Source: a virus
Strand: one strand, 5' to 3'
Length of the DNA stretch: 64,000 bases
Virus record (IMG/VR): IMGVR_UViG_3300027674_000001
Span: 1-64,000 of that record
The position numbers and the translations under genes are program-made. A model generated the notes under the pieces. The model was given only the letters and a program-made list of their open reading frames with translations, had not been told where the DNA came from and searched no databases. Of the stretch, positions 5,672 to 57,377 are shown one piece after another; position 1 is the stretch's first letter; each line of letters opens with the position of its first letter.

Positions 5672-5997
5672 CAATCGACGAAGCCATCGCCCAGTGCGAT
5701 ATCCGCAATTACCGGAAAGATGTCAGATGGGTACCCAACCCCAATGAACCAGTCGAGTTTATCCCTGTGTACAGTGTAGATAGCGGCCAAGCAGATATCA
5801 GCGGGCCAACCGATGCACTATTAATGTTATTTATGTGCGGTGTAAGTAGTGTGGACGGTAATGATGTGATCCGCACTATCCGTACTCGTGACTATATATG
5901 TAATCCTGTAGATATCATGGTGATTAAGGTTGAGAGTACAACTGACAAAGAGTCAAGCCAAGGTAACATCATCTGGCGTCGGCCTACATCAGTATGA
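5668..5997 (+). CDS. Hypothetical protein
   Basis: 109-aa ORF with ATGA overlaps at both ends. Confidence 0.5.
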   Translation: MTIDEAIAQCDIRNYRKDVRWVPNPNEPVEFIPVYSVDSGQADISGPTDALLMLFMCGVSSVDGNDVIRTIRTRDYICNPVDIMVIKVESTTDKESSQGNIIWRRPTSV

Positions 5998-7418
5998 TAG
6001 TAGTCCCTGGTGCTGGCCGCCTACCTAACCTCGTGCTGCTTTGTGGGGAAGCTCCCGGCGCACAGGAAGCCGAGAAGGGAGAGCCATTTATAGGACGTAG
6101 CGGGCAAGAACAAAGCTGGTATTTATCCCGCCACAACCTTAACGTCCGCAACTGGTATCGTACCAACGTCTCGAAATGCTGGCATGGTGATAATCGCGAC
6201 CCCTCCCGCGAAGATATCGAGGAGTGGACTCCTGTACTCCTCTCCGAAATAGAACAATGCTCCCCCTCGCTCGTGATAGCAGTCGGGAGGTTCGCCGCTC
6301 GATTCTTCCTCGGGGAATCGGTAGAGATGGATATGGTTCACGGGCTACCCCATCGCCCCGGTGCCTTCGATCCCTCGCGTATATCCCGCGCGCCCAAGGG
6401 GTGTGTTATCCTGCCCGTGACGCACCCAGCTAGTGTCTTCCACGGCTCCGATGACAAGAAGAATGATATCCGGGCGCTGGTAGACTGGGATTACTCTCAG
6501 GCCGCGCAAGTGTTAGCTTTGATTAAATCCGGCCGCGCCCACGAGATAGACTACCGTGGTGACGAATATCCCAATCCGCACTATGAAGACGTATCGGGTC
6601 AATTCATCTCTGATTACATCGCCGCTAAAGTCACTCTCGGCGGGGTGCAATCCATGGCGCTTGACACCGAGGGAGTACCGGGCGCCGAGTGGTCTATACA
6701 GGTGAGCTTAGACCCAGGTGAGGGATTCTTACTCAGGTGCGCTCGCGATGACTTCCAGGTGGGGATAGCGGCATTACAGGAGGCGGTAGATAAAGGTATC
6801 TTGGTTATAACCCATGACGCCTCCACCCCTGCCGGCTGCTGCTACGATACCATCATGGCGCGCGGTATGGGGCTCGATTTATCCCGAGCATCCAACATCT
6901 TCAACACGATGACAGCGCTGTACCTATTACGTTTCGAGCCCCAAGGACTCAAGCCCGCAGCTTGGCGCTGGTGTGGCATGCGCATGACAGACTATGAGAG
7001 CCTAATCGGCGACATCGGCTACCGGAAGCAATTCGAGTACCTATGTAGGGTACTGGATTACCGAGATTCCCCTTGGCCTACAATTGAACCTCGAATGGTG
7101 CACGAACACGATGGCACCTCGCGCGTATATTCGCCCCATGGCATAGAGCAATCGGCCCGGAGTATCGTTCTCGATATCGCCAACGGTAAGCTAGACAAGG
7201 ACGGGAATCCGCCCGATCCGTGGAAGCGATGGAAGCAAGTCCTACCGGAGATTAGAGAGATTACCTCGCGGGTGCTAGGCCCCATGCCTACAGGTAATCT
7301 AGGGGATATACCTCTAGAGGACGCCACTATCTACGCAGCTAAAGATGCCGACGCTTCCTTACGACTGTATTACGCGCTGTCGGATGAATTGCGGCGACGG
7401 GATCTAACACAGGCATAA
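5994..7418 (+). CDS. Family-4 uracil-DNA-glycosylase-like domain fused to a PolA-type 3'-5' exonuclease domain (N-terminal part of a split DNA polymerase)
   Basis: UDG4-type motifs GEAPG..E...G.PF.GRSG and THPAS. Exonuclease motifs MALDTEG (ExoI) and YAAKDADAS (ExoIII). The ORF ends at the usual exo/pol domain boundary. Confidence 0.85.
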   Translation: MIVVPGAGRLPNLVLLCGEAPGAQEAEKGEPFIGRSGQEQSWYLSRHNLNVRNWYRTNVSKCWHGDNRDPSREDIEEWTPVLLSEIEQCSPSLVIAVGRFAARFFLGESVEMDMVHGLPHRPGAFDPSRISRAPKGCVILPVTHPASVFHGSDDKKNDIRALVDWDYSQAAQVLALIKSGRAHEIDYRGDEYPNPHYEDVSGQFISDYIAAKVTLGGVQSMALDTEGVPGAEWSIQVSLDPGEGFLLRCARDDFQVGIAALQEAVDKGILVITHDASTPAGCCYDTIMARGMGLDLSRASNIFNTMTALYLLRFEPQGLKPAAWRWCGMRMTDYESLIGDIGYRKQFEYLCRVLDYRDSPWPTIEPRMVHEHDGTSRVYSPHGIEQSARSIVLDIANGKLDKDGNPPDPWKRWKQVLPEIREITSRVLGPMPTGNLGDIPLEDATIYAAKDADASLRLYYALSDELRRRDLTQA

Positions 7419-7424
7419 ACAGAC

Positions 7425-8525
7425 ATGCCAGCTTACTACAACGAGATAGACCCATTCGTGGCCAATTGGCTAGAGTGGCTAGTTAAAGTTGAGATGATCG
7501 CGGATGGCGTGGTAGATAGGCGCTCTATCAAGGACGTTATGCCAAGTGACTTGAACGGGTTTACTCAGTGTCATTTCTTCGCGGGTATAGGCGGCTGGTC
7601 GTATGCGTTACGGTTGACTGGATGGCCCGATAATAGACCCGTGTGGACAGGCTCATGCCCATGTCAACCGTTCTCAGGTGCAGGGCTAATGCTGGGAGAG
7701 AATGATGATAGGCACCTCTGGCCAAGTTGGTTTGATCTCATTGCGCAGTGCCAACCTCCAATCATCTTTGGAGAACAAGTTGCAAGCCCGCCTGGACGTG
7801 AATGGCTCGATACTGTATCAGCTAATTTGGAAGCATTGGACTATGCCATCGGGGCGGCGGATCTGTGCGCTGCGGGCATCGGTGCCCCGCACATCAGGCA
7901 ACGGCTGTGGTTCGTGGCCGAGTCCACGAGCGACCGATACGGGGAGACGCGGATGGAAGCCGAGTCCCGGAGAGGGCAATGTACAACTCGACAGGATGGC
8001 AGCGATGTGGCTAGCGGGGTATCCAACACCAAACACCCGCGATCACCATGCACAGGGGGCAACCCACAACACGAAAGCTCAATCGTCGTCACTGGCAACA
8101 AAGTTAGAGAAGAAAGCGCGGCCTATGGGCTGGCCAACCCCGATGGCAGGAACACCGAAACAGAAGGGTTACAACGAAGCCGGCAACACGGACAGCAGCC
8201 GAAAGACGGTCGCACTATTATCAGGTTGGCCCACGACTCGTTCCAGCGATGCAGAGAAGAACGTGCGAACGATAGAAGGGAGCGCCCGCGAGATGGCAAG
8301 GAAGGGCACAGCGCAGGACTTGAACCAAGCGGCGACACTAACCTATGGGCCTTGTGCGAATGGCTCCCATACTCAGATGGTAGATCGCGGCCAGTTGAAC
8401 CCGGCACATTCCCGTTGGCTCATGGGATTCCCCGACGTGTGGGACGATTGCGCGGATATGGTAACGCGATAGTACCTCAAGTCGCCGCTGAGTTTATAGG
8501 TGCATATCTGGATACAGAACAATGA
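7425..8525 (+). CDS. DNA (cytosine-5)-methyltransferase with an anomalous reading-frame structure
   Basis: This frame carries motifs I FFAGIGG, IV PCQPFS, VI FGEQV, VIII QRLWF and X GNAIVPQV. The central third is Arg-rich and low-complexity, while the overlapping ORF 7702..8472 carries family-typical target-recognition motifs. See the finding on this gene. Confidence 0.7.
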   Translation: MPAYYNEIDPFVANWLEWLVKVEMIADGVVDRRSIKDVMPSDLNGFTQCHFFAGIGGWSYALRLTGWPDNRPVWTGSCPCQPFSGAGLMLGENDDRHLWPSWFDLIAQCQPPIIFGEQVASPPGREWLDTVSANLEALDYAIGAADLCAAGIGAPHIRQRLWFVAESTSDRYGETRMEAESRRGQCTTRQDGSDVASGVSNTKHPRSPCTGGNPQHESSIVVTGNKVREESAAYGLANPDGRNTETEGLQRSRQHGQQPKDGRTIIRLAHDSFQRCREERANDRRERPRDGKEGHSAGLEPSGDTNLWALCEWLPYSDGRSRPVEPGTFPLAHGIPRRVGRLRGYGNAIVPQVAAEFIGAYLDTEQ

Positions 8526-9802
8526 CTGGCCGCCACACCACCATGGAAGAGTGTATGGCGGTACTCCCGATATTCGAGGAGATGCAGCGGAATGGTATGC
8601 CCGCATCCCGATCATACTTCGAGGCCCTATCCGCCGAGATGTGGCAGCGTATGTCCACGGTTCAACGACGTATATCCACGGAATACTTCGATGGCCGCCC
8701 GTTCAATCCCAATTCCACCAAGCAAGTGGCAACCCTTCTCCGTCGTCGCGGACTCGTGGGGCATAAGCGGACCCAAGCGGGCGCTGTATCTACCTCCGAG
8801 AAGTCCATAGGGCACTTGCAATTCACGGACCCCGCGATTCATGACGTATTCGAGTGGCGGGAGTACGAGCATATCAAAGACGCATTCTGTCAACCCATCT
8901 TAGGTAAATTCGACCCCGCTAACCCGGACGATATCCAACCCATCCGGTGTGTTATCCGTACTACTCGCATCCCTACGCGGCGGATAGCTGCTAGTGACCC
9001 TAATCTACTCGCTATGCCGGTGCGCACCGAGGAAGGACGTAAAGTGCGAACCGGGTTCATATGCCCCGAGGGTGAGGTATTCGGAGCTTGGGACTACTCG
9101 CAATTAGAAATGCGCTGCATGGCGCACGAATCGCGCGACCCCCTCATGTGTCAACTGTTTTACGAGAATCGAGATATCCACACCGAGACAGCGGCTCGAA
9201 TATTCAAGATACCGCTAGATCAGGTAGATAAGTTCAAGCATCGTATCCCGGCGAAAAATTCGGGATTTGGAATTCTATATGGGATACAAGGCGAAGGACT
9301 GTTAACCCAACTCCGGATGCTCGGCATCGAGGGATGGACTAAAGAGTCTTGCCAAAAACTAATCGGTGACTGGTTGGACGTGTTCCAAGGAGTAAAAGAG
9401 TACATCGCGCGGACAGCGGTAGAGGTGGCGAAAGTCGGCTATGTGCGGGACTACTCAGGAGCCTATCGCTACATCCCTGGAATCCGCCACTACGACCGCA
9501 AGATAGCCGCAGAGGCCGCACGGTTAGCAGTGAGTCAACGTATCCAGGGCTTGGCGCAAACCATGATACAGCGAGCGATGATTTATCTCCGGCCCCAGAT
9601 ACGCTCTATGCAGGATAGTGGGCTTAACGTTAAGTGGCGCCTTCAAGTGCATGACGAATTACTTAAGTCGTTCACCCCGGACTTGTGGGAGCCATTAGAT
9701 TACATCGTCCGGGATGCGTTAGTTAACCACAGCGGGATAGAGTTAAGAGTGCCGATAGAGTGTGAAGGTAAGTACGCCTCTAGGTGGTCTGATCTTAAGT
9801 GA
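8522..9802 (+). CDS. Family-A DNA polymerase, polymerase domain only (C-terminal part of the split polymerase)
   Basis: Motif A DYSQLEMR, motif B RIPAKNSGFGILYG, motif C QVHDEL. The ATG overlaps the methyltransferase stop (ATGA). Confidence 0.9.
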   Translation: MTGRHTTMEECMAVLPIFEEMQRNGMPASRSYFEALSAEMWQRMSTVQRRISTEYFDGRPFNPNSTKQVATLLRRRGLVGHKRTQAGAVSTSEKSIGHLQFTDPAIHDVFEWREYEHIKDAFCQPILGKFDPANPDDIQPIRCVIRTTRIPTRRIAASDPNLLAMPVRTEEGRKVRTGFICPEGEVFGAWDYSQLEMRCMAHESRDPLMCQLFYENRDIHTETAARIFKIPLDQVDKFKHRIPAKNSGFGILYGIQGEGLLTQLRMLGIEGWTKESCQKLIGDWLDVFQGVKEYIARTAVEVAKVGYVRDYSGAYRYIPGIRHYDRKIAAEAARLAVSQRIQGLAQTMIQRAMIYLRPQIRSMQDSGLNVKWRLQVHDELLKSFTPDLWEPLDYIVRDALVNHSGIELRVPIECEGKYASRWSDLK

Positions 9803-9812
9803 GGTTAAGGCT

Positions 9813-10493
9813 ATGCCCTACGCTAATATAGAAGTTGGAAGAATGAAAGCCAGAGAGAGGTATCTCAGAAACAAGGAAGCTATTGACTCTGCATCAAGAG
9901 AATACTATTGGAAGAATAAAGAACGAATAAACTCCAAGAGGAGAAAACCAATCCAAAGTGCAAGCGAAAGAGCCGACCATTTAACTGCCAAACTAAGGGC
10001 TAGGTTCCAGAGTTACCTACGTCGTAATAAGGTAACTGGGTGCTTAGAGTGGATGGGCTATAAAGATGTTCACGGATATGGTAAACTGTGGATAGGTAGC
10101 CAGAAAGATGGCACCCTTAGAAAGGAAATGTCTCATCGCGTTGCGTGGATTCTAGCTGGTAAAGAGATTACACCAGAGAAACCATTTATCCTGCACAATT
10201 GCCCATGCGGCGACAATCCCTCGTGTTGCGAGATCGCGCATCTATGGGATGGCACAGCAGCAGACAATAATACCGATAGATCAAGAAAGGACAGAAGTAG
10301 ACGCAGTGAGCTAGGACTCCCTAGAGGTGTTCAACCAAATTACACTCAGAAGGAATCTTACCAAGCCCGTATTCAAGTGGGCAGTAAGCAAATCTACATC
10401 GGATCGTATAGCTCAATCGAAGAGGCTAGGCAAGCTGTAGAAGCTGCCGGCGGATGGAGACAAGAAGAGAGCGGCGGCGATGCCACCACGTAA
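9813..10493 (+). CDS. HNH homing endonuclease with a C-terminal AP2-like DNA-binding domain (free-standing mobile gene)
   Basis: GCLEWMGYKDVHGYG...SHRVAW...LHNCPCGDNPSCCEIAHLWDGTAADN is an HNH_3-type signature. YQARIQVGSKQIYIGSYSSIEEA is AP2-like. The gene is visibly AT-rich relative to its flanks. The start was moved to ATG 9813. Confidence 0.85.
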   Translation: MPYANIEVGRMKARERYLRNKEAIDSASREYYWKNKERINSKRRKPIQSASERADHLTAKLRARFQSYLRRNKVTGCLEWMGYKDVHGYGKLWIGSQKDGTLRKEMSHRVAWILAGKEITPEKPFILHNCPCGDNPSCCEIAHLWDGTAADNNTDRSRKDRSRRSELGLPRGVQPNYTQKESYQARIQVGSKQIYIGSYSSIEEARQAVEAAGGWRQEESGGDATT

Positions 10494-14131: not shown

Positions 14132-14578
14132 ATGAGTGCGGGTGTGGGTGTACGTGTTAGGGAATGGAAGTGTACAACCGATATGAAAAGTTGGACAGAT
14201 AGCAGATTCGGTAATCGCCTCCATAAATCGTGGTGGAAGCGCAGACATTACTTAGATCATACGATGGAACTGTCTCATTGGCCGTGGTGGATGTTGCGGC
14301 GTTGGTTGAAATGGTTCACATGGCGTATACATCTGGGCTCATTCTGCACTGAGATGTGCCAACGGTGTGGCCGTTGTCAACCCTTGGTATGGTGGGCTGA
14401 TGATGAGATATGGCAAATAGTGTCCGGGGTAACTGGGCCGAGCAGAGGTGGCGCGTATTGTCCTGAGTGCTTTGATTGTCTATTTAAGCGAAAAACTGGC
14501 ATTCTTTTAAGTTGGGCACCGGAGATCCATGAAGCGCGCATAGAGAGGTGGGATAAATGGAGAGCGGAGAATAAATGA
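14132..14578 (+). CDS. Hypothetical Trp/Cys-rich protein
   Basis: 148-aa ORF with CQRCGRC...CPECFDC zinc-ribbon-like pairs. Confidence 0.5.
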   Translation: MSAGVGVRVREWKCTTDMKSWTDSRFGNRLHKSWWKRRHYLDHTMELSHWPWWMLRRWLKWFTWRIHLGSFCTEMCQRCGRCQPLVWWADDEIWQIVSGVTGPSRGGAYCPECFDCLFKRKTGILLSWAPEIHEARIERWDKWRAENK

Positions 14579-14805
14579 TCGACGACTCTCCATACGGGCG
14601 CCCACGACTCCGCGCTGAGCACGCTAAATACATGCGCGCAGATGCCACCATTCGTAACCTTCGCCGCCACGATCACCACTACGATAACCCTATAACCGGC
14701 GAACCCAACCGTATTGCGTGGTGCGCGTACTACCGTGAGCAACTAATTAACCTTGGCGTGATAGTGCCTACCGGCATCGTGTCGGACTCTGGCACTGAGC
14801 AATAA
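14575..14805 (+). CDS. Hypothetical protein
   Basis: 76-aa ORF with an ATGA overlap. Confidence 0.5.
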   Translation: MIDDSPYGRPRLRAEHAKYMRADATIRNLRRHDHHYDNPITGEPNRIAWCAYYREQLINLGVIVPTGIVSDSGTEQ

Positions 14806-14807
14806 GT

Positions 14808-14867
14808 CAACCGTACAACCGTACAACCGTACAACCGTACAACCGTACAACCGTACAATGTACAACG
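14808..14867. repeat. Tandem octamer repeat (CAACCGTA) x6 perfect, plus two degenerate units
   Basis: Perfect copies at 14808, 14816, 14824, 14832, 14840 and 14848, then CAATGTA and CAACG. Located in the intergenic gap ending about 20 nt before ATG 14889. Confidence 0.95.
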
Positions 14868-14888: not shown

Positions 14889-15632
14889 ATGAGCCAGACA
14901 TTTAACCCTCCCAAGTCCGTTGCCGAGTGCGCCGTCAACGCGGGGCTCGGCCGTACCCAGTGCATTAGTTACTTTACCCCCGATGGCATCCAAACCAAAT
15001 CCACCCTCGCTGGCACCATCGTCCCCGAGCATCATCTAGATTTCTCGGGGGATCGGCATGTGCTCGCCGATTCGATGGTGGCCCGCTATGGCAAGGGGCT
15101 TGGATTCCCGTGGGAGCACGCTACCCCTGGTAACCCTGTAGAGTTCACGCCCACTCCTGTCTACGCTTACGCGGGGGATTTAGACGAACTCAAATGGGGT
15201 GTGACGGGGATGGTGCTCACCGCCTTGCTGTTCGGTGGGTGGTTCGGGCGCAGCGGGCTAGTTCTCCCGTACACCCTCACCGTGGAGGACGCTGCTGATA
15301 TTCTCGTGCTGTGGGATTTAGCGGTGGCTCTGGGCCAGTCCTCTGGCGGTATCAGCAGCGTGGGAGGGGTGTCGATATTCCCGGCCGCCATCGTGGTGGA
15401 CACGCTCCCTACCGAAGGCGTCCTCACGGGTCAACCATACCAAGTCAAGTCCACGGGCGAAGTGTGGATCTATAACGGGACGAAGTGGAATAGTCAAGGG
15501 GTGCAAGGCGCGGGTGCAGCGGGTGGAACGGGCGCGGGCTCTGGCACCGTCTCACTCGCCACCCTCACTGCTGCCGTCGTGGGTATCCAAGCCCAGATGG
15601 CCACACTCAAGAAGAAACTGGGGATTAAGTAG
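14889..15632 (+). CDS. Hypothetical protein (247 aa) with a Gly/Ala-rich C-terminal region
   Basis: ORF with RBS GAAAGGTAGG. No family recognised. Confidence 0.6.
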   Translation: MSQTFNPPKSVAECAVNAGLGRTQCISYFTPDGIQTKSTLAGTIVPEHHLDFSGDRHVLADSMVARYGKGLGFPWEHATPGNPVEFTPTPVYAYAGDLDELKWGVTGMVLTALLFGGWFGRSGLVLPYTLTVEDAADILVLWDLAVALGQSSGGISSVGGVSIFPAAIVVDTLPTEGVLTGQPYQVKSTGEVWIYNGTKWNSQGVQGAGAAGGTGAGSGTVSLATLTAAVVGIQAQMATLKKKLGIK

Positions 15633-16676: not shown

Positions 16677-17057
16677 ATGAATACAAGAAACCCAACTCCG
16701 CTAAGCGCTCTCGCTCCTCCCGCTCCTCCCGCTCCTCCCGCTCCTCCCGTCTCTCGTTCTGCTGTATTCATCTCGCCCACATCTCGCCACACCGTTACCC
16801 CGTTCGACTCTACACCCGACACGTATACGTTAGATGGGGTGGTGTATCAATACGTTGGGACTTCGGATGGGGCGGCGTTCTACATGACGGATGAGCAGAT
16901 AGATAAAGCTGGGTATGCTCTTGCATCTCCTCGATACCTTGATTCGTTTGTCACATGTAACGGGTTGGGGCCTTGGTGTGAGCAATGCGGCGATTGTCTC
17001 GTGTGTTACGGTGAGGACGTATGTACGGTTACCGGAGAGCCGCACTCGTGCCCATAA
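16677..17057 (+). CDS. Hypothetical protein with a (PAP)n tract and a Cys-rich C-terminus
   Basis: 126-aa ORF. A 9-bp repeat GCTCCTCCC x4 at 16713-16748 encodes PAPPAPPAPPAP. The C-terminus has CEQCGDCLVC. Confidence 0.5.
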   Translation: MNTRNPTPLSALAPPAPPAPPAPPVSRSAVFISPTSRHTVTPFDSTPDTYTLDGVVYQYVGTSDGAAFYMTDEQIDKAGYALASPRYLDSFVTCNGLGPWCEQCGDCLVCYGEDVCTVTGEPHSCP

Positions 17058-17785
17058 AGCAACCCGAGACACCTGTGCCACCGAAGCCCGCACCACCCCG
17101 CAGTAATCTAATCCATCTCCCTGTTGGGGATCACGGATATACGCGAGGTAAGAAGGAACGCAAGCAGCATGAGCACTCGGTGGGGTACGGTACTGAGGAC
17201 TTCGATATTATCGATGAGTTAACCGTTAACCGAGATCAGTACTCAGTGGGGCCAGAGGACAAGTGCTTTAATCTATCTATGCTCGACTTCCCGTCCTTAT
17301 GCTCTATCGCGGTTAACGGTATCAAGGCTCGAATGGGGTTAAACAGTATTCGTATTGGGGTTCACACGATCATATCATGTTGCATAGCTAACGCCATTAC
17401 CATCATAGATAAACGAGATCATACACGGCAAACCCTAGAATCACGGGAGAGATTCGATCTCAGTAATCCCGACGCCGATGGTTATATAATCACTCAACTT
17501 AATAAGTGGTTCGATCAGTTTGCGGGGGAGATCGTGTTCAGCGGAGAACGGCAGAATATTAAATTGCCGCTTGGAGTGGGGTCTAGCTTGAGCGAGCTGT
17601 CAAAGGGGTTGGGGTTGGGCAATCCCACCATGGCAGTCATATGCTCTATGCTTACACTAAGTACTCAGTCGTCCGTTAATCGCCACCATAGGGCTGCCAT
17701 GAGCCGACACGTAGAGGACTTCTACCAGTTGATAAGAGTGAGGATAGATGGGATTGATGCGCTGATGGAGAGGTTTAACCTGTGA
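17021..17785 (+). CDS. Hypothetical protein (254 aa)
   Basis: Long ORF, somewhat AT-richer than its surroundings. It overlaps the upstream gene by 37 nt. No family recognised. Confidence 0.5.
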   Translation: MYGYRRAALVPIKQPETPVPPKPAPPRSNLIHLPVGDHGYTRGKKERKQHEHSVGYGTEDFDIIDELTVNRDQYSVGPEDKCFNLSMLDFPSLCSIAVNGIKARMGLNSIRIGVHTIISCCIANAITIIDKRDHTRQTLESRERFDLSNPDADGYIITQLNKWFDQFAGEIVFSGERQNIKLPLGVGSSLSELSKGLGLGNPTMAVICSMLTLSTQSSVNRHHRAAMSRHVEDFYQLIRVRIDGIDALMERFNL

Positions 17786-17891
17786 CTAGGAGCAACGTTA
17801 GTCACTCTAGTCATGTTCTAGGAAATGTGACTAGGATGACTAGCACCTATTCGATTGGCGTAAATGCGGCGTATTTTAGTCACTTAGTCAC
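17782..17891. repeat. Array of seven CTAGTCA(C/T)-type sites in both orientations
   Basis: GTGACTAG at 17782 and 17827, ATGACTAG at 17836, TAGTCAC at 17799, 17877 and 17885, TAGTCAT at 17808. All lie within a 160-bp intergenic gap. Confidence 0.85.
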
Positions 17892-17944
17892 GGATTACTC
17901 ACGCGCGCACGCGTACATTACTTCTCTAGAGGAGCCCCCAGCCC

Positions 17945-18466
17945 ATGAAGCCCACACCTAGAACCCCTAAGCGTGCAACCCGAGAGAGTAATCGCCCGAG
18001 TAACCGATGGTGGAAAATATGGGTAAGCGGGGAGTCTGATGACTTGATGGCAGTAAGGTACTATGGCACTAAGAAAGATGCACTAGATAAAGCAGCCGTG
18101 CATTTCTTGTGCCAGGTTAGCCATCTAGAAATAGTTGAACCCAAGCTAGCAGAAATAGTTGAACCCAAGCTAGCGAGTGTGGAGGATTGCTTACACAATC
18201 TTATCGACCATCCTCGACATTACACGAGCCACCCCAGCGGAGTTGAATGCATAACCATCATCGAACACTTCACCCATAACGTTGGCGCGGCGATTAAATA
18301 CCTGTGGCGAGCGGGGTTGAAGTACCCGAGTAACACAATGACTTACGCTGAGATACAGGAGGCACGGCTAGAGGATTTACGTAAAGCCAAGTGGTACATT
18401 AACCGCGAGATTCAACGTAGACTAACAGAACGAGAGAACAAGGCGCGCGAGGTGGTGAATGACTAA
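17945..18466 (+). CDS. DUF3310-like phage protein
   Basis: HPRHYTSHPSGVECITIIEHF...AAIKYLWRAGLK matches the conserved core I associate with DUF3310. Contains a 24-bp tandem duplication at 18128-18175. Confidence 0.55.
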   Translation: MKPTPRTPKRATRESNRPSNRWWKIWVSGESDDLMAVRYYGTKKDALDKAAVHFLCQVSHLEIVEPKLAEIVEPKLASVEDCLHNLIDHPRHYTSHPSGVECITIIEHFTHNVGAAIKYLWRAGLKYPSNTMTYAEIQEARLEDLRKAKWYINREIQRRLTERENKAREVVND

Positions 18467-18764
18467 GCGGTTAACTGGACTAGGCTCATCCCCTCTTGAC
18501 GCCATTGGAGTGGATACTGGACCCGCTCACGATCACCCAGTAGATAAACTCCTGCGAGGTAAGGCGACAACGAGAGATTACGATAAGGAGTACCGTATAC
18601 CCCCATCGCTAGTGCCCCCCATCATTGCATGGAAGTGTACTAGGTGTAAGCGCATATGGAGCACAAGAAACACGCCCGAGATGGGAGTTATGCCATGTTC
18701 TGAAACCGGATGGGCGCACGAGATAGAACCCGTGAGAGCGCCAAGAGGTCAGGAAAGGAGTTAA
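18459..18764 (+). CDS. Hypothetical protein
   Basis: 101-aa ORF overlapping the upstream stop. Confidence 0.45.
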   Translation: MTKRLTGLGSSPLDAIGVDTGPAHDHPVDKLLRGKATTRDYDKEYRIPPSLVPPIIAWKCTRCKRIWSTRNTPEMGVMPCSETGWAHEIEPVRAPRGQERS

Positions 18765-18771
18765 CCCGCGC

Positions 18772-19143
18772 ATGAGCGACGATTTAACCTGCAACCCGAT
18801 ACCGATACATGACACACCTATAACCCCCACGCCAATCTACCGTGGAGAGTTATCCGAGGTACGCTCCCAACTCTCCGAGGTGCTAGCCAAGTTACAGATA
18901 GCCCCAGCTGGTGCCAGTGCCACACCTGCGCCGGTATTCTCCGTACTAGACTTCATCACGCTAATGTCCACCATCGAACGTACCGCGTTGGACGTGGCAT
19001 GGCAGAGTGTACCCAAGAACGCACCCACCGCGCAATTGACGGATTGGTTGACGCGGGCGGAGGTGGTAGCCAAGTACATGCGGCGGCGATTGGGGTTACC
19101 GGAGAGTGTGGTGCAAGCGCCGGTGCCGCCCATTACTACGTAA
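18772..19143 (+). CDS. Hypothetical protein (small terminase candidate by position only)
   Basis: 123-aa ORF immediately upstream of the large terminase gene. No motif support. Confidence 0.45.
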   Translation: MSDDLTCNPIPIHDTPITPTPIYRGELSEVRSQLSEVLAKLQIAPAGASATPAPVFSVLDFITLMSTIERTALDVAWQSVPKNAPTAQLTDWLTRAEVVAKYMRRRLGLPESVVQAPVPPITT

Positions 19144-19153
19144 CATTTGCCCT

Positions 19154-20641
19154 ATGCCTATTGCACCTCGCTCTACTGTCGAGCCTGTGCCCCCTCTTAC
19201 CTACGCGGGTGCTATACAGGAATTATCTCGCGCCGATCAATGGCAAGCATCCCTAGCCCGAGACTCCCTCCGCGATTTCATCAAACAGAATTGGACAATC
19301 GTAGAGCCCATTAAGAAGCTTATCTGGAACTGGCATCACTATGTATTCTGCGATGTGTTAGAACAGATTACCGCTGGCAAGATACGACGTATCGTAATTA
19401 ACGTGCCCCCAGGTAGCTCGAAAAGTCTTTTTGCATCCGTTTTTTGGCCAGCGTGGGAATGGGCTAAAGATCCATCTCTCCGCTACCTAACCGCGTCCTA
19501 TACCGATGCCAACACCATCCGAGATAACCGTAACGTTAGATTCATCGTTACCTCGGATAACTACAAAAAGTATTACTGGGCCAACCCCACCCACGTAGAC
19601 TTGGTGGCACTCGACGCTGCCCAATCCGCCAAGATTCGATTTGACACCACCGCTAAGGGTTGGCGTATCGCTACCTCTGTCGGCGGCATCGGTACCGGCG
19701 AGCACCCTGACAGAATTATTATCGATGATCCGTTGAAGGCTAAGGATGCCGACTCCGATGTAGAGTTAGCCGCGTGTCAAACATGGTTCGACGGTACTAT
19801 CTCCACACGTGGCGCGAGCGAACGAATCGCGATAGTGGTAATCATGCAGCGGTTACATAGGAGAGATCTAAGCGGGTATCTATTGGGTAAGGGTGGCTGG
19901 GATCACTTAATGCTCCCGATGAGATTCGATCCCAAGCGGGCCGATCCAAGGGACATGAGAACCCAACCGGGCGAATTATTGTGGCCAGAGTTGTGGACGG
20001 AAGCGAAGGTGCGACAAGAGGAGATAGACCTAAACCAATTTGGGGCCTCGGGGCAGCTACAACAAGATCCAGTACCAGCCGGTGGTGGCCTATTCAAACG
20101 AGAGTGGTTTACATTCGTGGATCAATCACCAGCCCGGTGCCGCCGATGCCGAGGATGGGATACCGCAGACACCCCCGGCGGAGGCAACTGGACGGTTGGA
20201 ACTAGGTTAGGGTACGATGATGAAATGGGCGACACCTACATAGAGCACAACATCCGAGGGCAATGGGGGCCAGGTGAGGTATCTACTAATATCAAGATGG
20301 CAGCCGAAATGGACGGGGTAGCATGTCTTATTCGCGAGGGCAGCGGGAGTGGTAAGGCTACAACCGAGGCGAGGGGTAAGATGCTAGCCCGGTACGATTA
20401 CGCCGCTGCCCCCGAGACTACCAAGACGGGTAATAAGATTCAACGAGCTAGCCCATTCCGTGCGCAGTGTGAGCTGGGTAAGGTTAAGATAGTGAGAGGA
20501 CCGTGGAATGAAATGTATATTGATGTGTTGTGTTCGTTTCCTGTTGGGGTTGTGGATGATGACGTGGACAGTACGAGCAACGCGTATAATGGACTCGTGG
20601 GAGATATGGAAGCAATGGATGGATTAGGGGTGACATGGTGA
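19154..20641 (+). CDS. Terminase large subunit
   Basis: Walker A-like VPPGSSKS, Walker B-like RIIIDDP, then the IVVIMQRLH segment and a C-terminal nuclease-like region typical of TerL. ATG 19154 is the first start after the upstream stop. Confidence 0.85.
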   Translation: MPIAPRSTVEPVPPLTYAGAIQELSRADQWQASLARDSLRDFIKQNWTIVEPIKKLIWNWHHYVFCDVLEQITAGKIRRIVINVPPGSSKSLFASVFWPAWEWAKDPSLRYLTASYTDANTIRDNRNVRFIVTSDNYKKYYWANPTHVDLVALDAAQSAKIRFDTTAKGWRIATSVGGIGTGEHPDRIIIDDPLKAKDADSDVELAACQTWFDGTISTRGASERIAIVVIMQRLHRRDLSGYLLGKGGWDHLMLPMRFDPKRADPRDMRTQPGELLWPELWTEAKVRQEEIDLNQFGASGQLQQDPVPAGGGLFKREWFTFVDQSPARCRRCRGWDTADTPGGGNWTVGTRLGYDDEMGDTYIEHNIRGQWGPGEVSTNIKMAAEMDGVACLIREGSGSGKATTEARGKMLARYDYAAAPETTKTGNKIQRASPFRAQCELGKVKIVRGPWNEMYIDVLCSFPVGVVDDDVDSTSNAYNGLVGDMEAMDGLGVTW

Positions 20642-21008: not shown

Positions 21009-21422
21009 ATGCGCATCCCCGACATCAACGTAGTCGTCAACTTCTCCGAAGAGGACCGGGATTTAATCCGCTCGGTACTCATCGGGCTAACCAGACTGGA
21101 GATCCTAATGTCAAAGAATACCGATGCACTCGCCGCCTTGGAAGCCATTGAAACCACTCTCGCCGCCGATGAGGCTCTAGAAGAGAGCGACCTTACCGCG
21201 TTGACCGCTGAGGTTACCGCGTTGAAGGCTCAGCTGGCCACCGCCACCGCCGAAGATAACTCCGCTGAGATCGCCACGACTACGGCCGCGATTACTGCAT
21301 TGGATGCCAAGATCAAGGCGAGTATTGCAGCGGCGCAGGGAGCACTACCGCCAGCGCCACCCGTGACCCCTCCTGCTACAATATTGCCGCAGGGTATTGA
21401 CAAGGGGCGCGCTCCGGCCTAG
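21009..21422 (+). CDS. Ala-rich coiled-coil protein
   Basis: ORF with ATG 21009 (TTG 20997 is an alternative start). Long Ala/Leu/Thr heptad-like region and a Pro-rich tail. Confidence 0.5.
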   Translation: MRIPDINVVVNFSEEDRDLIRSVLIGLTRLEILMSKNTDALAALEAIETTLAADEALEESDLTALTAEVTALKAQLATATAEDNSAEIATTTAAITALDAKIKASIAAAQGALPPAPPVTPPATILPQGIDKGRAPA

Positions 21423-21425
21423 AAT
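21397..21425 (+). promoter_or_regulatory. Sigma70-type promoter P6
   Basis: TTGACA 21397-21402, 17 nt, TAGAAT 21420-21425. It lies inside the 3' end of the upstream ORF. Confidence 0.6.
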
Positions 21426-21432
21426 GGATCAC

Positions 21433-21804
21433 ATGAGCAGCTTCCTTTCCGCCGCCGCCGAGCAGCACCTCGCCCGCCTACAGCGAATCGTCTCCGCGGA
21501 GCGCATGTTGCGAGAGTACCCTGATCGATGCATGGCAATGAGGATGGCACTAGGGATGAAACGTCCTGCGCTCGCGGAAGCATTGGGAGTGACAGATGAC
21601 ACCATCGCGAACCGAGAGACGGGACGCCATTCACCTGTAGGGGAAGCAGCGGTGGCTCATCTTGAATACCTAGAGCGAGCCATCGAGATAACCCATACAC
21701 CTAGAGCAAGGGTCGAGGCAATCTATCGGGAGCTTTACATGGCGCGCGGTGGACCACCTCGAATACCGCGAGAGAGAACGAGCTACAATGAATGCTCCCG
21801 ATAA
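21433..21804 (+). CDS. XRE-family helix-turn-helix regulator, probably on a leaderless mRNA
   Basis: MKRPALAEALGVTDDTIANRETG is a classic XRE HTH. ATG 21433 lies 8 nt after the -10 element and has no Shine-Dalgarno sequence. Confidence 0.65.
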   Translation: MSSFLSAAAEQHLARLQRIVSAERMLREYPDRCMAMRMALGMKRPALAEALGVTDDTIANRETGRHSPVGEAAVAHLEYLERAIEITHTPRARVEAIYRELYMARGGPPRIPRERTSYNECSR

Positions 21805-38211: not shown

Positions 38212-38626
38212 ATTCACTCTCTCGGGCGCAGACATCCTCGCTCGCAAGCTGGACGAAATCAAGCTGGAACTCCGCACTAAACTTGACGCGGCAATGGGCG
38301 AGGAAGCGGACGCGATTCTAGCAGACGCACAAGAGAACTACGTGCCAGAGGACTCAGGCGATCTAAAGGACTCAGGGGTAGTCACAGAAAGCAAGATAGT
38401 CACATTAGATGGCCCAATCGAGTATGGCATATCGTTTGGCGATGATAAGACAGCCGCGTATGCCATAAGTGTGCATGAGTATCCCAGCGAGCATGATCCT
38501 CGCTCGTGGAAAGCGGCCAAGGATGGCGTCCACTTCCGTAAAGGTGGGCCAAAATATTTGGAGATCCCGTTCCGTAAGGCTGAGAGTGGGATGCTTGAGC
38601 GGATCGCGTCCAAGGTGAAGCTATGA
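38204..38626 (+). CDS. HK97 gp10-family neck/tail-completion protein
   Basis: The motif YVPEDSGDLKDSG and the downstream AAYAISVHE fit the gp10 family pattern (VP.dTG.L..S ... YA..vE). Confidence 0.65.
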   Translation: MGKFTLSGADILARKLDEIKLELRTKLDAAMGEEADAILADAQENYVPEDSGDLKDSGVVTESKIVTLDGPIEYGISFGDDKTAAYAISVHEYPSEHDPRSWKAAKDGVHFRKGGPKYLEIPFRKAESGMLERIASKVKL

Positions 38627-56020: not shown

Positions 56021-56060
56021 CTGGTCAGCACCGGGGCACGTGGGCGCGTCTTGGGGGGCC

Positions 56061-56089
56061 TAGACAGGGACCCCCTTCTGTGGTACGCT
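56061..56089 (+). promoter_or_regulatory. Sigma70-type promoter P8 (conserved family, -35 variant TAGACA)
   Basis: TAGACA 56061-56066, 17 nt, TGG-TACGCT with the -10 at 56084-56089. Confidence 0.55.
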
Positions 56090-56095
56090 CCTCCT

Positions 56096-57182: not shown

Positions 57183-57377
57183 ATGCAAGACTATACGATT
57201 TACATCATCCCGGTAAAGACAGGTGTTCGTGCGCGCTGTGGTGGCCCCTACAAGGCAGAGACAGCGGAGGGCGCGCTAGATGCGTACTTCGCTGATTTCC
57301 CCGATGAGGCCCCATCCGCGGAGGGGAACGAGTATGACGAGAACGAGTACGATGCTGCGCCCGAGGTGCACTCATGA
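57183..57377 (+). CDS. Hypothetical acidic protein
   Basis: 64-aa ORF with RBS AAGGAGAG. Confidence 0.5.
   Translation: MQDYTIYIIPVKTGVRARCGGPYKAETAEGALDAYFADFPDEAPSAEGNEYDENEYDAAPEVHS

What the first reader, a model, noticed from the sequence alone, without database searches (positions are those of the whole stretch)
17782..17891. Dense array of seven CTAGTCA(C/T) sites in both orientations in a non-coding gap
Seven copies of an 8-mer core lie within 110 bp. They are GTGACTAG at 17782 and 17827, ATGACTAG at 17836, TAGTCAC at 17799, 17877 and 17885, and TAGTCAT at 17808. Some are paired head-to-head or in tandem with 1-2 nt spacing. A GC-rich near-palindrome ACGCGCGCACGCGT (17901-17914) follows. 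The array lies about 1.3 kb upstream of the terminase genes and next to a 254-aa AT-rich ORF of unknown function. Arrays like this are typical of protein-binding centres such as pac/cos recognition sites for small terminase, replication-origin iterons or parS-like sites.
Basis: seen in the sequence. Interest (0 to 1): 0.65.

Follow-up and report, generated by a model that had tools for sequence, protein, structure and literature searches.

The report
Phage late-operon operator repeat array
Seven short repeats lying between a soil phage's early genes and its DNA-packaging genes are most likely the docking sites of the ribbon-helix-helix DNA-binding protein encoded right beside them, probably a switch for the late genes; this is a familiar kind of phage control element, here built with a protein family nobody has described.

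Summary
Seven TAGTCAY sites lie in 17782-17891, about 0.03 are expected per 110 bp, and no other cluster exists in the window.

The window is a ~69.6-kb soil-metagenome phage with nearly all genes on the + strand. The array sits where the replication (early) module ends and the packaging and structural module begins.

Three diverged relatives keep the motif copies, a tandem pair and a 58-bp block running to the ribosome-binding site. That block is 90% identical, against 66-83% for every other aligned stretch, nearly all coding. The ORF called across the array is not conserved in frame.

The adjacent 254-aa ORF belongs to an undescribed family with 346 cluster representatives and no Pfam or PHROG match. 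It carries a ribbon-helix-helix (RHH) domain. In eight lineages this gene is followed directly by a motif array (TTAGTCAC, TTAGGGTG, TTAGGCAC, TAGGGACC and others). TerL lies 1-4 kb further on.

Best reading (about 0.5): an operator array for this RHH protein over the late-operon promoter. It works like the RinA/LtrC/ArpU late activators, which use 7-nt repeats upstream of terS.

Rivals are a pac site (about 0.17) and an iteron origin (about 0.13). I rate it a new variant of a known kind, of moderate interest.

The parts
17021..17785 (+). Gene for a 254-aa protein with a ribbon-helix-helix (RHH) DNA-binding domain. It is the last gene of the early/replication-side cluster and the proposed binder of the array.
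   Evidence: No Pfam, PHROG or NCBIfam hit. The family has 346 representatives at E<=0.001. The family profile hits the RHH proteins MazE6 (E=0.0026) and CopG (E=0.014) over residues about 175-215. The AF2 model (pLDDT 86.4) shows strand-helix-helix twice, then a long C-terminal helix. Homologues sit directly upstream of arrays in L322, L003, L240, L323, L324, L326 and L244.
17782..17789 (-). Site 1, GTGACTAG (CTAGTCAC on the - strand), overlapping the TGA stop of the RHH gene.
   Evidence: It is not conserved in L003, so it is the least secure member.
17798..17814 (+). Sites 2 and 3, TTAGTCAC-t-CTAGTCAT: the left arm of the palindromic quad (9-bp period).
   Evidence: (inverted repeat I4). 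The motif copies are kept in L322 and L003 while the nucleotides between them change.
17827..17843 (-). Sites 4 and 5, GTGACTAG-g-ATGACTAG: the right arm of the quad (9-bp period).
   Evidence: With the left arm it can form a hairpin of about 20 bp (RNA -24.9 kcal/mol). The Y position gives C:A mismatches, and the nucleotides between motifs do not covary.
17876..17891 (+). Sites 6 and 7, the tandem pair TTAGTCAC TTAGTCAC (8-bp period). This is the start of the most conserved block.
   Evidence: (D2). L003 has TTAGTCACgTTAGTCAC and L322 has TTAGTCACTTAGTCAA. The block 17874-17931 is 90% identical to L003, against 66-83% for every other aligned stretch.
17895..17902 (+). Degenerate eighth copy, TTACTCAC.
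   Evidence: one mismatch to TTAGTCAC. It is only partly conserved: L003 and L322 both read TTTCTCGC.
17900..17917 (.). 18-nt G+C-rich tract of strictly alternating pyrimidine and purine, CACGCGCGCACGCGTACA. In the promoter reading it is the spacer between the activator site and the -10 element.
   Evidence: The three lineages differ here only by transitions. Its function is not established.
17914..17919 (+). TACATT, the putative -10 hexamer of the late promoter. This is an inference only.
   Evidence: TACATT in the window and L003, TACAGT in L322. No TTGACA-like hexamer lies 16-18 nt upstream. The consensus sigma-70 scan finds no promoter in the gap.
17913..17931 (+). Conserved GTACATTACTTCTCTAGAG, which includes the palindrome CTCTAGAG (17924-17931). 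Proposed as promoter core, transcription start and 5' leader.
   Evidence: Identical in L003 and 16 of 19 in L322. It occurs once in the window and has no exact match in IMG/VR.
17931..17947 (+). Ribosome-binding site GGAG and the ATG (17945) of the first gene of the packaging/structural cluster.
17945..18466 (+). First downstream gene, a 173-aa protein with a DUF3310 domain.
   Evidence: Pfam PF11753, E=2e-7. PHROG families annotated as nucleotide kinase.
19106..20641 (+). Large terminase subunit, 1.2-1.3 kb downstream on the same strand.
   Evidence: phrog_38, E=1e-77. TIGR01630.

Best explanation
The array is a set of operator sites for the 254-aa protein encoded immediately upstream. That protein has an RHH domain. 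The model predicts a second strand-helix-helix unit in the same chain, so one molecule could read one asymmetric 7-8-bp site.

Molecules would bind side by side on sites 8-9 bp apart, as other RHH proteins do on tandem sites. The complex would sit on and just upstream of the promoter of the long co-directional operon that starts at 17945 (DUF3310 protein, terminase, portal, capsid, tail).

The tandem pair at 17876-17891 abuts the position where a -35 element is missing. It lies 22 nt upstream of a conserved -10-like TACATT. The protein, made as the last product of the early gene cluster, therefore most likely switches on (less likely holds off) late transcription. The palindromic quad would add cooperative binding. 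As a hairpin in the early transcript it may also help to end that transcript.

Shown: the array, its conservation, its uniqueness, the RHH domain, and the recurrent gene-array adjacency with changing motifs.
Inferred: that this protein binds these sites, that a promoter lies here, and the sign of the regulation.
For: 1. The sites are real, unique and conserved as a motif. Seven copies lie in 110 bp against 0.03 expected. L322, L003 and L324 keep TAGTCAY copies while the spacers diverge.

2. The block from the tandem pair to the ribosome-binding site (17874-17931) is 90% identical to L003, against 66-83% for every other aligned stretch, nearly all coding. It is read in different frames in the two phages, so the constraint is on the DNA or RNA.

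3. The neighbouring gene encodes an RHH protein. The family profile hits MazE6 (E=0.0026) and CopG (E=0.014). The AF2 model (pLDDT 86) shows two strand-helix-helix units. BFVD structural neighbours are named RHH, CopG or NikA, although none is significant.

4. Gene-array linkage holds across lineages with different motifs. In the window, L322, L003 and L324 the motif is TTAGTCAC. It is TTAGGGTG in L240, TTAGGCAC in L323, TAGGGACC in L326 and GAAAGTC in L244. The array starts 13-560 bp after the gene's stop, and in most of these loci it is the densest short-motif cluster of the locus.

5. The second beta-strand reads RQNIKLP or RLNVKLP in all TTAGTCAC lineages, including L324, whose protein is only 37% identical overall. 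It differs where the motif differs.

6. In L322 an HNH-like ORF is inserted between the RHH gene and the array. The array stays with the downstream operon start.

7. Position. The gene is the last of the replication-side cluster. The array lies directly upstream of a co-directional packaging and structural cluster. TerL lies downstream on the same strand in every RHH lineage whose contig reaches far enough and shows an array.

8. Tandem spacing of 8-9 bp matches RHH operators from established knowledge: MetJ metboxes at 8 bp and omega heptads at 7 bp.

9. Direct precedent. [quoted passage not shown] They bind 7-nt direct repeats immediately distal to their own gene and activate the terS promoter (PMC3753634).
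Against: No promoter is demonstrated. The consensus scan finds none in the gap, the host and its promoter type are unknown, and the -10 assignment is mine.

L324 keeps the motif but not the distance from the tandem pair to a -10-like hexamer.

Characterised RHH regulators are mostly repressors, so activation is the weaker half of the claim.

No canonical small terminase is recognisable in these lineages, so a packaging role for the RHH protein remains possible.

Other phages of the same TerL clade have larger arrays of the same design (up to 17 copies over 450 bp). These lie directly after a primase-helicase gene and look more like iteron origins or packaging sites than promoters.

Two family members, L325 and L327, show no array after the gene.

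The homology of the first strand-helix-helix unit to RHH is not significant by sequence (hhalign E=0.02, probability 2%).
Confidence: 0.5

Rival explanations
1. Packaging initiation (pac) site. The repeats are the recognition array on which the packaging-specificity factor assembles. That factor would be a small terminase, or the RHH protein acting as or with one. TerL then makes the first headful cut nearby, for instance in the G+C-rich tract or at CTCTAGAG.
For: The array lies 1.2-1.3 kb upstream of TerL, at the head of the packaging module. Lineage-specific arrays of the same design occur 0.3-1.9 kb upstream of TerL in many phages found by TerL homology. In L270 the array lies between a weakly HTH-like 164-aa gene and TerL. 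The distant TerL relatives among isolates are T1-like phages and cluster B mycobacteriophages. T1-like phages package by the headful (PMC11447400); that cluster B genomes are circularly permuted is from my own knowledge. The two ~69.7-kb assemblies look circular, which fits permuted genomes. No canonical TerS is recognisable here. P1 pac, with seven hexamers in two sets, and SPP1 pacL/pacR are repeat-based (established knowledge). RHH accessory proteins such as TraY and NikA help nucleases cut at oriT (established knowledge).
Against: The array tracks the RHH gene (13-560 bp) much more tightly than TerL (1-4 kb). No solved small terminase I know of is an RHH protein, and the model does not look like a ring-forming TerS. 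The strongest conservation runs on through a -10-like element to the ribosome-binding site, as for a promoter and leader. The known assembly break points (about window 2.2 kb and 19.04 kb) are not at the array. Only one related contig starts at its array (L288), and another starts 55 bp before its array (L289); the same array is internal in another assembly (L302).
Confidence: 0.17
2. Replication origin. The repeats are iterons bound by an initiator, here the RHH protein, which opens neighbouring DNA and recruits the replisome.
For: In many phages of the same TerL clade, arrays of the same design flank A+T-rich spacers of 20-70 bp directly after a gene of about 700 aa for a primase-helicase (Prim-Pol plus DUF5906/D5-like, VapE-like or AAA_25). 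That is the anatomy of SaPI ori, of P4 ori/crr with its 8-bp type I iterons, and of the Sfi21-type ori (established knowledge). The array region is A+T-richer than the genome, 0.43 against 0.55, and falls in the lowest 0.6% of 100-bp windows. The array lies at the end of the replication-side gene cluster.
Against: In the window lineage the neighbouring gene is not a helicase, primase or known initiator. The DNA polymerase (5994-9802) and the UvrD-like helicase (57374-58924) are far away. There is no stretch below 40% G+C in the gap. The best conserved part is a G+C-rich tract plus the leader of the next gene. I know of no replication initiator that is an RHH protein. GC skew shows no turning point here, although with all genes on one strand that test is weak.
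Confidence: 0.13
3. A structure with no dedicated binding protein. The inverted motif copies matter only because they form a hairpin in the early transcript (a terminator or processing site), or a cruciform in DNA.
For: The quad folds into a hairpin of about 20 bp starting 12 nt after the stop codon. Its energy is -24.9 kcal/mol in the window, -23.4 in L322 and -16.0 in L003. The whole gap folds better than shuffles, z=-2.9. Staphylococcal ltr-terS intergenic regions also hold a terminator (PMC3753634).
Against: There is no U-tract, and the terminator scan finds nothing there. The C/T position of the motif gives C:A mismatches in every lineage, and the nucleotides between motifs do not covary (GC opposite AT in L322). 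What is conserved is the motif, not the pairing. The tandem direct pair, the best conserved element, has no partner to pair with nearby. In L322 the quad lies inside the called HNH-like ORF. No Rfam family matches. A terminator role may coexist with protein binding.
Confidence: 0.07
4. Centromere-like (parS) site of a plasmid-prophage partition system, with the RHH protein as the centromere-binding protein, as for ParG, ParR and omega.
For: RHH centromere-binding proteins bind arrays of short direct and inverted repeats (established knowledge). One of the 86 family members scanned hit a PHROG annotated 'partition protein ATPase'.
Against: No ParA- or ParM-type ATPase gene shows up near the array or elsewhere in the precomputed Pfam lists for the genome; the only AAA hit is AAA_24. 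The search was not exhaustive, but I found no integrase or lysogeny module either. The gene order is that of a virulent-type phage with its own DNA polymerase.
Confidence: 0.03

Closest known systems
Late transcriptional regulators (Ltr: RinA, LtrC, ArpU families) of siphoviruses of Gram-positive bacteria, with their repeat region upstream of terS (Quiles-Puchalt et al. 2013, PMC3753634). The lactococcal TP901-1 Alt/P-late pair is related.
   Same: The regulator gene is the last gene of the early cluster, just after the replication module. Short (7-nt) repeats lie immediately distal to that gene, in the intergenic region ahead of the packaging genes. Specificity differs between lineages. One promoter serves a long co-directional packaging, morphogenesis and lysis operon. 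In the staphylococcal phages compared there, the intergenic region also holds the terminator of the regulator's own transcript.
   Different: Ltr proteins are basic proteins of about 15 kDa from other families. Here the protein has 254 aa, carries an RHH domain, and has no Pfam or PHROG match. Here the sites occur in both orientations (a palindromic quad plus a tandem pair), not as three direct repeats. The first downstream gene is a DUF3310 protein, not a recognisable terS. Activation is untested here.
RHH operator arrays: MetJ metboxes (tandem 8-bp units), omega repressor heptads of pSM19035 (7-bp units, direct or inverted, 7-10 per operator), Arc/Mnt of P22, CopG, TraY (two RHH units in one chain). 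All from established knowledge.
   Same: Short sites of 7-8 bp packed at a 7-9-bp period. Direct and inverted arrangements both occur. Neighbouring molecules bind cooperatively. The RHH sequence signature is present (CopG and MazE6 profile hits). As in TraY, two strand-helix-helix units in one chain would explain sites that are asymmetric and have an orientation.
   Different: The protein is much larger, with about 60 disordered N-terminal residues, extra helices and a 31-residue C-terminal helix. Sequence similarity to known RHH proteins is marginal and covers one unit only. Those systems are mainly repressors or plasmid and conjugation factors, not late-gene switches of virulent-type phages.
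Lambda Q and the late promoter PR' (established knowledge).
   Same: The regulator gene ends the early operon. Its DNA site lies in the late promoter immediately downstream of the gene, ahead of the terminase and structural genes.
   Different: Q is an antiterminator that binds one site between -35 and -10 and needs a paused RNA polymerase. Nothing here indicates antitermination, and the protein is unrelated.
Phage P1 pac (seven TGATCA/G hexamers in two sets around the cut) and SPP1 pacL/pacR (established knowledge).
   Same: Several copies of a short motif in two groups within about 100-160 bp, close to the terminase genes.
   Different: Those sites are bound by the small terminase (PacA, G1P) and lie in or at the terS gene. 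Here the array follows an RHH gene, and no ends or cuts are known.
Iteron origins next to primase-helicase genes: SaPI ori, P4 ori/crr (8-bp TGTTCACC iterons), Streptococcus phage Sfi21-type ori (established knowledge).
   Same: Short iterons in two sets, in both orientations. The same design is seen after primase-helicase genes in other phages of this TerL clade.
   Different: The window lineage has no adjacent helicase or initiator and no marked A+T-rich spacer.

Membership tests
Ribbon-helix-helix (RHH) DNA-binding superfamily (protein 17021-17785) | Strand-helix-helix unit with the RHH sequence signature: alternating polar residues in the strand, and a G-x-S/T/N turn at the start of helix 2. 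| tested here: met
   Profile A8 aligns residues about 175-215 with MazE6 (E=0.0026) and CopG (E=0.014). AF2 gives E175-183/H184-197/H201-213 at pLDDT above 90.
Ribbon-helix-helix (RHH) DNA-binding superfamily (protein 17021-17785) | Two strands pair into an antiparallel ribbon. Here the partner would be a second unit in the same chain (residues 82-131), as in TraY. | tested here: inconclusive
   The model has a second strand-helix-helix, E82-91/H92-107/H114-131. The two units align in register but not significantly (hhalign E=0.02, probability 2%). Foldseek hits to RHH proteins and relaxosome accessory chains are all above E=0.02.
Ribbon-helix-helix (RHH) DNA-binding superfamily (protein 17021-17785) | Sequence-specific binding to short repeated sites. 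| not testable with these tools
   There is only indirect evidence: gene-array adjacency in eight lineages, and beta-strand sequence that varies with the motif.
Ltr late-activator systems (RinA/LtrC/ArpU) | The regulator belongs to one of the described Ltr protein families (about 15 kDa, basic). | tested here: not met
   The protein has 254 aa. It has no hit in Pfam, PHROGs or NCBIfam, and 86 family members give no Ltr-type PHROG.
Ltr late-activator systems (RinA/LtrC/ArpU) | [quoted passage not shown] | tested here: met
   Gene maps. The same order holds in L322, L003, L240 and L326.
Ltr late-activator systems (RinA/LtrC/ArpU) | Short repeats immediately distal to the regulator gene, specific to the lineage. 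| tested here: met
   Here the repeats are in both orientations, not direct only.
Ltr late-activator systems (RinA/LtrC/ArpU) | The regulator activates a promoter upstream of the packaging genes. | not testable with these tools
   Only a conserved -10-like TACATT/TACAGT without a -35. The consensus scan is negative.
pac site of headful-packaging phages | Bound by the small terminase and located in or at terS. | tested here: inconclusive
   No TerS is recognisable. The candidates of 101 aa and 123 aa have no family hits. The array lies about 0.9 kb upstream of the gene that abuts TerL.
pac site of headful-packaging phages | Site of the first cut: excess of molecule ends or read starts. | not testable with these tools
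   No reads were available. The break points of the two ~69.7-kb assemblies differ and are not at the array. Contig ends in relatives are uninformative.
Iteron replication origin (SaPI/P4/Sfi21 type) | Iterons adjoining a marked A+T-rich unwinding region. | tested here: not met
   The lowest 40-bp G+C in the gap is 0.40, and the region averages 0.43 against 0.55 for the genome. The feature is met in distant TerL-clade relatives.
Iteron replication origin (SaPI/P4/Sfi21 type) | Adjacent initiator, helicase or primase gene. | tested here: not met
   The neighbour is the RHH protein. The polymerase and the UvrD-like helicase lie elsewhere. The feature is met in relatives L291, L295, L305, L306 and L311.
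Intrinsic terminator | G+C-rich hairpin followed by a U-tract. | tested here: not met
   A hairpin is present, but there is no T-run and no hit in the terminator scan.
Known RNA families (Rfam 15) | Match to a covariance model. | tested here: not met
   No match at E<=1 in 17000-18600.
parS/centromere | Partner partition ATPase gene. | tested here: not met
   None appears in the Pfam hits on record for the called genes from upstream of the window start to about window 40.7 kb, or among the ORFs I scanned at 56-62.5 kb. Window 40.7-56 kb and about 3 kb of the genome outside the window were not examined.

The most novel reading that the evidence does not exclude
The RHH protein and its array are not, or not only, a transcription switch. 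They are the genome-recognition device of the packaging machine: a non-canonical 'small terminase' or terminase accessory factor of the RHH class. It would mark the pac site for TerL in a phage group in which no classical TerS can be found, possibly coupling late transcription to the start of packaging at one nucleoprotein complex. A parallel possibility is an RHH-type origin-binding initiator.
Probability: 0.15. Interest if true: 0.7.

Novelty: new variant of a known kind. Interest (0 to 1): 0.5.

Why it matters
Late-gene switches are known in detail for only a few phage groups: lambda Q, Mu C, P2 Ogr, T4, and RinA/ArpU/Alt in Gram-positive hosts. For the many uncultivated soil siphoviruses nothing is known.

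If this reading is right, a family with 346 cluster representatives in metagenomes, currently 'hypothetical' and absent from Pfam and PHROGs, gains both a function and a predicted DNA target. The target can be read directly from the sequence beside each gene. That gives natural protein-site pairs with different specificities (TTAGTCAC, TTAGGGTG, TTAGGCAC, TAGGGACC), useful for studying how RHH proteins read DNA and as orthogonal regulatory parts.

It also marks the early/late boundary in such genomes. The same design of tandem 8-9-bp units in inverted sets recurs at the replication/packaging junction across a whole TerL clade, which raises the question whether one principle serves transcription, replication and packaging there.

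Tried and rejected
- Close DNA relatives among isolated phages: none (megablast). TerL reaches only 39% identity there, and the Rhizobium phage locus is not syntenic.
- The single-sequence TerL search of IMG/VR found nothing.
- The near-identical contigs L001 and L002 have a 100% identical gap, so they gave no footprinting.
- Pattern scans for the tandem pair. IMG/VR returned mostly an unrelated family of ~45-kb contigs. The JGI metagenome scan returned chance hits and unrelated bacterial tandem-repeat arrays, but no relative of this phage. Because I searched for this 8-mer, I rejected those as a look-elsewhere effect.
- The conserved 19-mer has no exact match in IMG/VR.
- A phage-wide promoter motif: pieces of the conserved block do not recur in the window beyond chance.
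- Consensus promoter and terminator scans were not above shuffles.
- GC skew shows no signal.
- TerL against PDB sequences gave no hit.
- The 254-aa protein against the annotated TerS of RHph_Y52 showed no similarity.
- The first AF2 model, from 5 sequences, was poor (pLDDT 54) and its fold search was meaningless.
- The good model has no significant match in PDB or BFVD. I used only the names of the weak hits, together with the sequence-profile result.
- A remote link between the RHH family and the 268-aa protein upstream of the L302 array: none.
- Contig ends as evidence for genome termini. Some apparent cases (L280, L300) are longer-period repeats. L288 starts 11 bp before its array, but the same array is internal in L302. 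I rejected this as evidence.
- The small proteins between array and TerL (101 aa, 123 aa) have homologues only in L003, so TerS could not be identified.
Full report
**1. What is there**

- On the - strand: GTGACTAG at 17782 and 17827, and ATGACTAG at 17836.
- On the + strand: TAGTCAC at 17799, 17877 and 17885, and TAGTCAT at 17808.

With one flanking base the unit is YTAGTCAY. A degenerate eighth copy, TTACTCAC, follows at 17895.

The layout has three parts:
- A lone copy overlaps the stop codon of ORF 17021-17785.
- A palindromic quad follows: two + copies 9 bp apart, 12 nt, then two - copies 9 bp apart (17798-17843).
- After 34 nt comes a tandem + pair with an 8-bp period (17876-17891).

Downstream of the pair lie, in order:
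- the sequence GTACATTACTTCTCTAGAG (17913-17931);
- a GGAG ribosome-binding site;
- the ATG of the next gene at 17945.

TAGTCAY occurs 26 times in the window, against 13.8 +/- 3.4 in shuffles. The 19 copies outside the array are near expectation and give 0.03 per 110 bp. Seven in one such stretch has a Poisson probability of about 8e-15. The only other 6-mer to reach seven copies in 110 bp belongs to an unrelated 8-bp tandem repeat at 14808-14866.

**2. Genomic setting**

The window is most of a phage genome of about 69.6 kb assembled from soil metagenomes. Two contigs of 69,761 and 69,772 bp carry it with different break points. Their length difference is explained by the assembler k-mer overlap plus two small repeat-copy differences, so both are circular assemblies.

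Nearly all genes are on the + strand.
- Upstream of the array lie DNA methyltransferases, a split family-A DNA polymerase, an HNH endonuclease and many unknowns.
- Downstream lie a DUF3310 protein (17945-18466), two small unknowns, TerL (19106-20641), portal, major capsid protein, tail genes and so on.

The array therefore sits exactly at the junction between the replication-side module and the packaging and structural module.

No isolated phage is close. Megablast finds nothing, and TerL reaches at most 39% identity. The distant TerL relatives among isolates are T1-like phages and cluster B mycobacteriophages. T1-like phages are headful packagers (PMC11447400).

**3. Conservation**

Three diverged relatives were recovered.
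- L003: TerL 76% identical, with an intein.
- L322: the neighbouring 254-aa protein is 81% identical.
- L324: that protein is 37% identical.

All keep TAGTCAY-type copies in the same place. In the three-way alignment of the window, L322 and L003:
- the motif copies of the quad and the tandem pair are kept;
- the nucleotides between them, the loop and the 34-nt spacer are not.

The stretch 17874-17931 is 90% identical to L003. Every other aligned stretch, nearly all coding, is 66-83% identical.

A 59-aa ORF is called across the gap in the source data. A 1-nt indel in L003 puts the conserved block in a different frame, so the constraint is not on a protein.

The lone first copy is not conserved in L003.

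The quad can fold into a hairpin of about 20 bp (-24.9, -23.4 and -16.0 kcal/mol in the three lineages). The whole gap gives z=-2.9 against shuffles. However:
- the C/T position of the motif produces C:A mismatches in each lineage;
- the nucleotides between motifs do not covary (GC opposite AT in L322);
- there is no U-tract;
- no Rfam family matches.

What selection keeps is the motif and its arrangement. That points to protein recognition, although a secondary role of the hairpin in the early transcript is not excluded.

**4. The neighbouring gene**

ORF 17021-17785 (254 aa) has no hit in Pfam, PHROGs or NCBIfam.

An exhaustive profile search finds 346 cluster representatives at E<=0.001, typically 200-300 aa. 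It is a sizeable but undescribed family. Of 86 members scanned against PHROGs, only two gave stray hits.

With an 86-sequence alignment, AlphaFold2 gives a confident model (pLDDT 86.4, pTM 0.80). It contains:
- a disordered N-terminus (1-60);
- a strand-helix-helix unit twice (E82-91/H92-107/H114-131 and E175-183/H184-197/H201-213);
- a 31-residue C-terminal helix.

The family profile searched against PDB sequences hits only RHH proteins. These are MazE6 (E=0.0026) and CopG (E=0.014), aligned over the second unit with the typical signature.

Foldseek finds nothing significant. The weak neighbours are AcaB and small F-plasmid relaxosome chains in the PDB, and viral proteins named RHH, CopG or NikA in BFVD.

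The second unit is therefore an RHH motif. The first has the same topology and aligns in register, but not significantly.

Two different units in one chain, as in TraY, would make a pseudo-dimer that reads an asymmetric, oriented site. That is what TAGTCAY is.

**5. Gene and array travel together**

Homologues of the 254-aa protein are followed directly by a dense array of a short motif, often beginning YTAG, in eight lineages:

| Lineage | Motif |
|---|---|
| window, L322, L003, L324 | TTAGTCAC-type |
| L240 | TTAGGGTG, 9 or more copies in 345 bp |
| L323 | TTAGGCAC |
| L326 | TAGGGACC/TTGGTCCCTA, tandem pairs at a 9-bp period in inverted sets, starting about 40 bp after the stop |
| L244 | GAAAGTC |

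In most of these loci the array is the densest short-motif cluster of the whole locus.

The distance from gene to array is 13-560 bp. The distance from array to TerL is 1-4 kb. In each of these lineages whose contig reaches far enough, TerL is present on the same strand.

In L322 an HNH-like ORF has been inserted between the gene and the array. The array stays at the head of the downstream operon.

The second beta-strand reads RQNIKLP or RLNVKLP in all TTAGTCAC lineages, including the 37%-identical L324 protein. It differs where the motif differs: RKQNLSIP, RRTVRLP and RQNVNLP.

L242 has only weak repeats. Two members, L325 and L327, show no array.

I take it as likely, about 0.75-0.8, that the array is the binding site of this protein. 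This is an inference from linkage and fit, not a demonstration.

**6. What it does**

The best-fitting model is a late-gene switch.

The regulator is the last gene of the early cluster. Its sites lie just distal to it. They abut a conserved block that reads like a promoter core without a -35:
- the tandem pair ends 22 nt before TACATT (TACAGT in L322);
- 11 nt after that hexamer comes the ribosome-binding site, and 25 nt after it the first gene of a very long co-directional operon.

If TACATT is the -10, the pair is centred near -42. That is the position of class II activators (established knowledge).

This is the organisation shown experimentally for RinA, LtrC and ArpU. [quoted passage not shown] Lambda Q and PR' follow the same logic.

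The 8-9-bp packing of the sites matches RHH operators such as MetJ metboxes and omega heptads (established knowledge).

Weak points:
- The promoter is not shown. Scans are negative and the host is unknown.
- The sign of regulation is a guess.
- L324 does not keep the spacing between pair and hexamer.

**7. Rivals**

*pac site.* Phages found by TerL homology very often carry lineage-specific arrays of the same design 0.3-1.9 kb upstream of TerL. The design is 2-4 tandem units at an 8-9-bp period, in inverted sets. Examples are GTAACGA, CCAGATG, GGTAACA, CGGTTTC (17 copies), GGGTTAC, GTACTAC, GGTATCA, CGAGGCG and CAGAGTC. No canonical TerS is recognisable in the window lineage. Against this reading:
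- the tighter link is to the RHH gene;
- the conserved block looks like a promoter and leader;
- there is no evidence of ends at the array.

*Origin.* In many of those relatives the array directly follows a primase-helicase gene of about 700 aa and flanks A+T-rich spacers. That is the anatomy of SaPI, P4 and Sfi21 origins. In the window lineage, however, there is no adjacent replication gene and no marked A+T-rich segment.

These relatives may carry a different element at the same genomic junction. I could not decide whether they do.

*Partition.* This is unlikely, because no ATPase partner was found.

**8. Verdict**

The element works like the Ltr-type late switches but is not a member of that family. 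It uses an undescribed RHH-containing protein family and sites in both orientations. I file it as a new variant of a known kind, of moderate interest.

Noticed in passing
window 14808-14866: Perfect 8-bp tandem repeat CAACCGTA x7.5, on the + strand only. It lies in the gap between ORF 14575-14805 and ORF 14889-15632, 22 nt ahead of that gene's start. The copy number differs between near-identical assemblies (5.5 copies in L001, 7.5 in the window and L002), and the repeat is absent from relative L003. It could be a slippage-prone leader or a second binding array.
   Followed up: partly
window 5994-9802: The family-A DNA polymerase is split. ORF 5994-7418 carries the UDG and 3'-5' exonuclease parts, and ORF 8522-9802 carries the polymerase domain. 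A C5 DNA methyltransferase gene (7425-8525) lies between them and an HNH endonuclease gene follows (9762-10493). In relative L003 the polymerase is one 893-aa ORF with UDG, exo and pol domains.
   Followed up: partly
L003 10001-12568: The TerL of the closest diverged relative (P0002, 855 aa) carries an intein with a LAGLIDADG domain. The window's TerL has none.
   Followed up: no
L322 1468-2019: An HNH-like 183-aa ORF is inserted between the RHH gene and the array in this relative. Its 3' end runs across the palindromic quad.
   Followed up: partly
window 18127-18174: Perfect 24-bp tandem duplication (AGAAATAGTTGAACCCAAGCTAGC x2) inside the DUF3310 gene. It is an in-frame repeat of 8 codons.
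   Followed up: no
window 54433-54791: A 150-bp unit repeated 2.4 times (72% matches) inside the 935-aa ORF 52741-55548, in the tail region.
   Followed up: no
L291 2720-2945; L295 3179-3450; L305 3861-4170; L316 1201-1540; L254 787-1120; L311 3287-3500; L306 5271-5490; L302 5392-5560; L270 5683-5895: Many phages of the same TerL clade carry lineage-specific arrays of the same design: 2-4 tandem units at an 8-9-bp period, in inverted sets around A+T-rich spacers. They lie in the gap just upstream of a 126-224-aa gene and TerL. In many of these and related loci the gap directly follows a primase-helicase gene of about 700 aa (Prim-Pol plus DUF5906, VapE-like or AAA_25). None of these loci has the RHH family. 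Whether they are origins, pac sites or promoters is open.
   Followed up: partly
L053 7803-8030 (IMGVR_UViG_3300018487_000050): An unrelated low-G+C viral contig has two adjacent units. In each, an inverted pair of tandem 8-mers flanks about 70 bp of similar A+T-rich sequence (ttcaaaagtcc.atatgca). One unit uses GTGACTAA/TTAGTCAC and the other GGTGCCTA/TAGGCACC. These are the same two motifs seen after RHH genes in the window and in L323. No member of the RHH family is encoded in the 10.7 kb available.
   Followed up: partly
L202 1101-1230 and 2256-2330; also L140, L203, L176, L205, L179, L144, L223: Bacterial metagenome contigs (OF... accessions) carry long arrays of nTTAGTCAY at a 9-bp period (5-6 copies), followed at once by the inverted array. 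They lie in intergenic DNA; in L202, ORFs for a likely metal transporter and an ABC-type permease lie alongside (my reading of the translations). They were found only because this 8-mer was searched for, so they are probably an unrelated palindromic tandem-repeat element.
   Followed up: partly
window 56051-56530 and 21397-21804: Two XRE-type helix-turn-helix proteins (HTH_31/HTH_3). One lies near the probable start of the early region. The other sits unusually among the genes between TerL and portal.
   Followed up: no
window 38378-38403: The only other place where two TAGTCAC copies lie close together (18 bp apart, both on the + strand). It is inside ORF 38204-38626 and could be chance or a secondary site.
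   Followed up: no
window 18459-18764: The 101-aa ORF between the DUF3310 gene and the TerL-proximal 123-aa ORF has a CxxC...C pattern and a weak zinc-ribbon hit (E=0.035). Neither small protein could be identified as a small terminase.
   Followed up: partly
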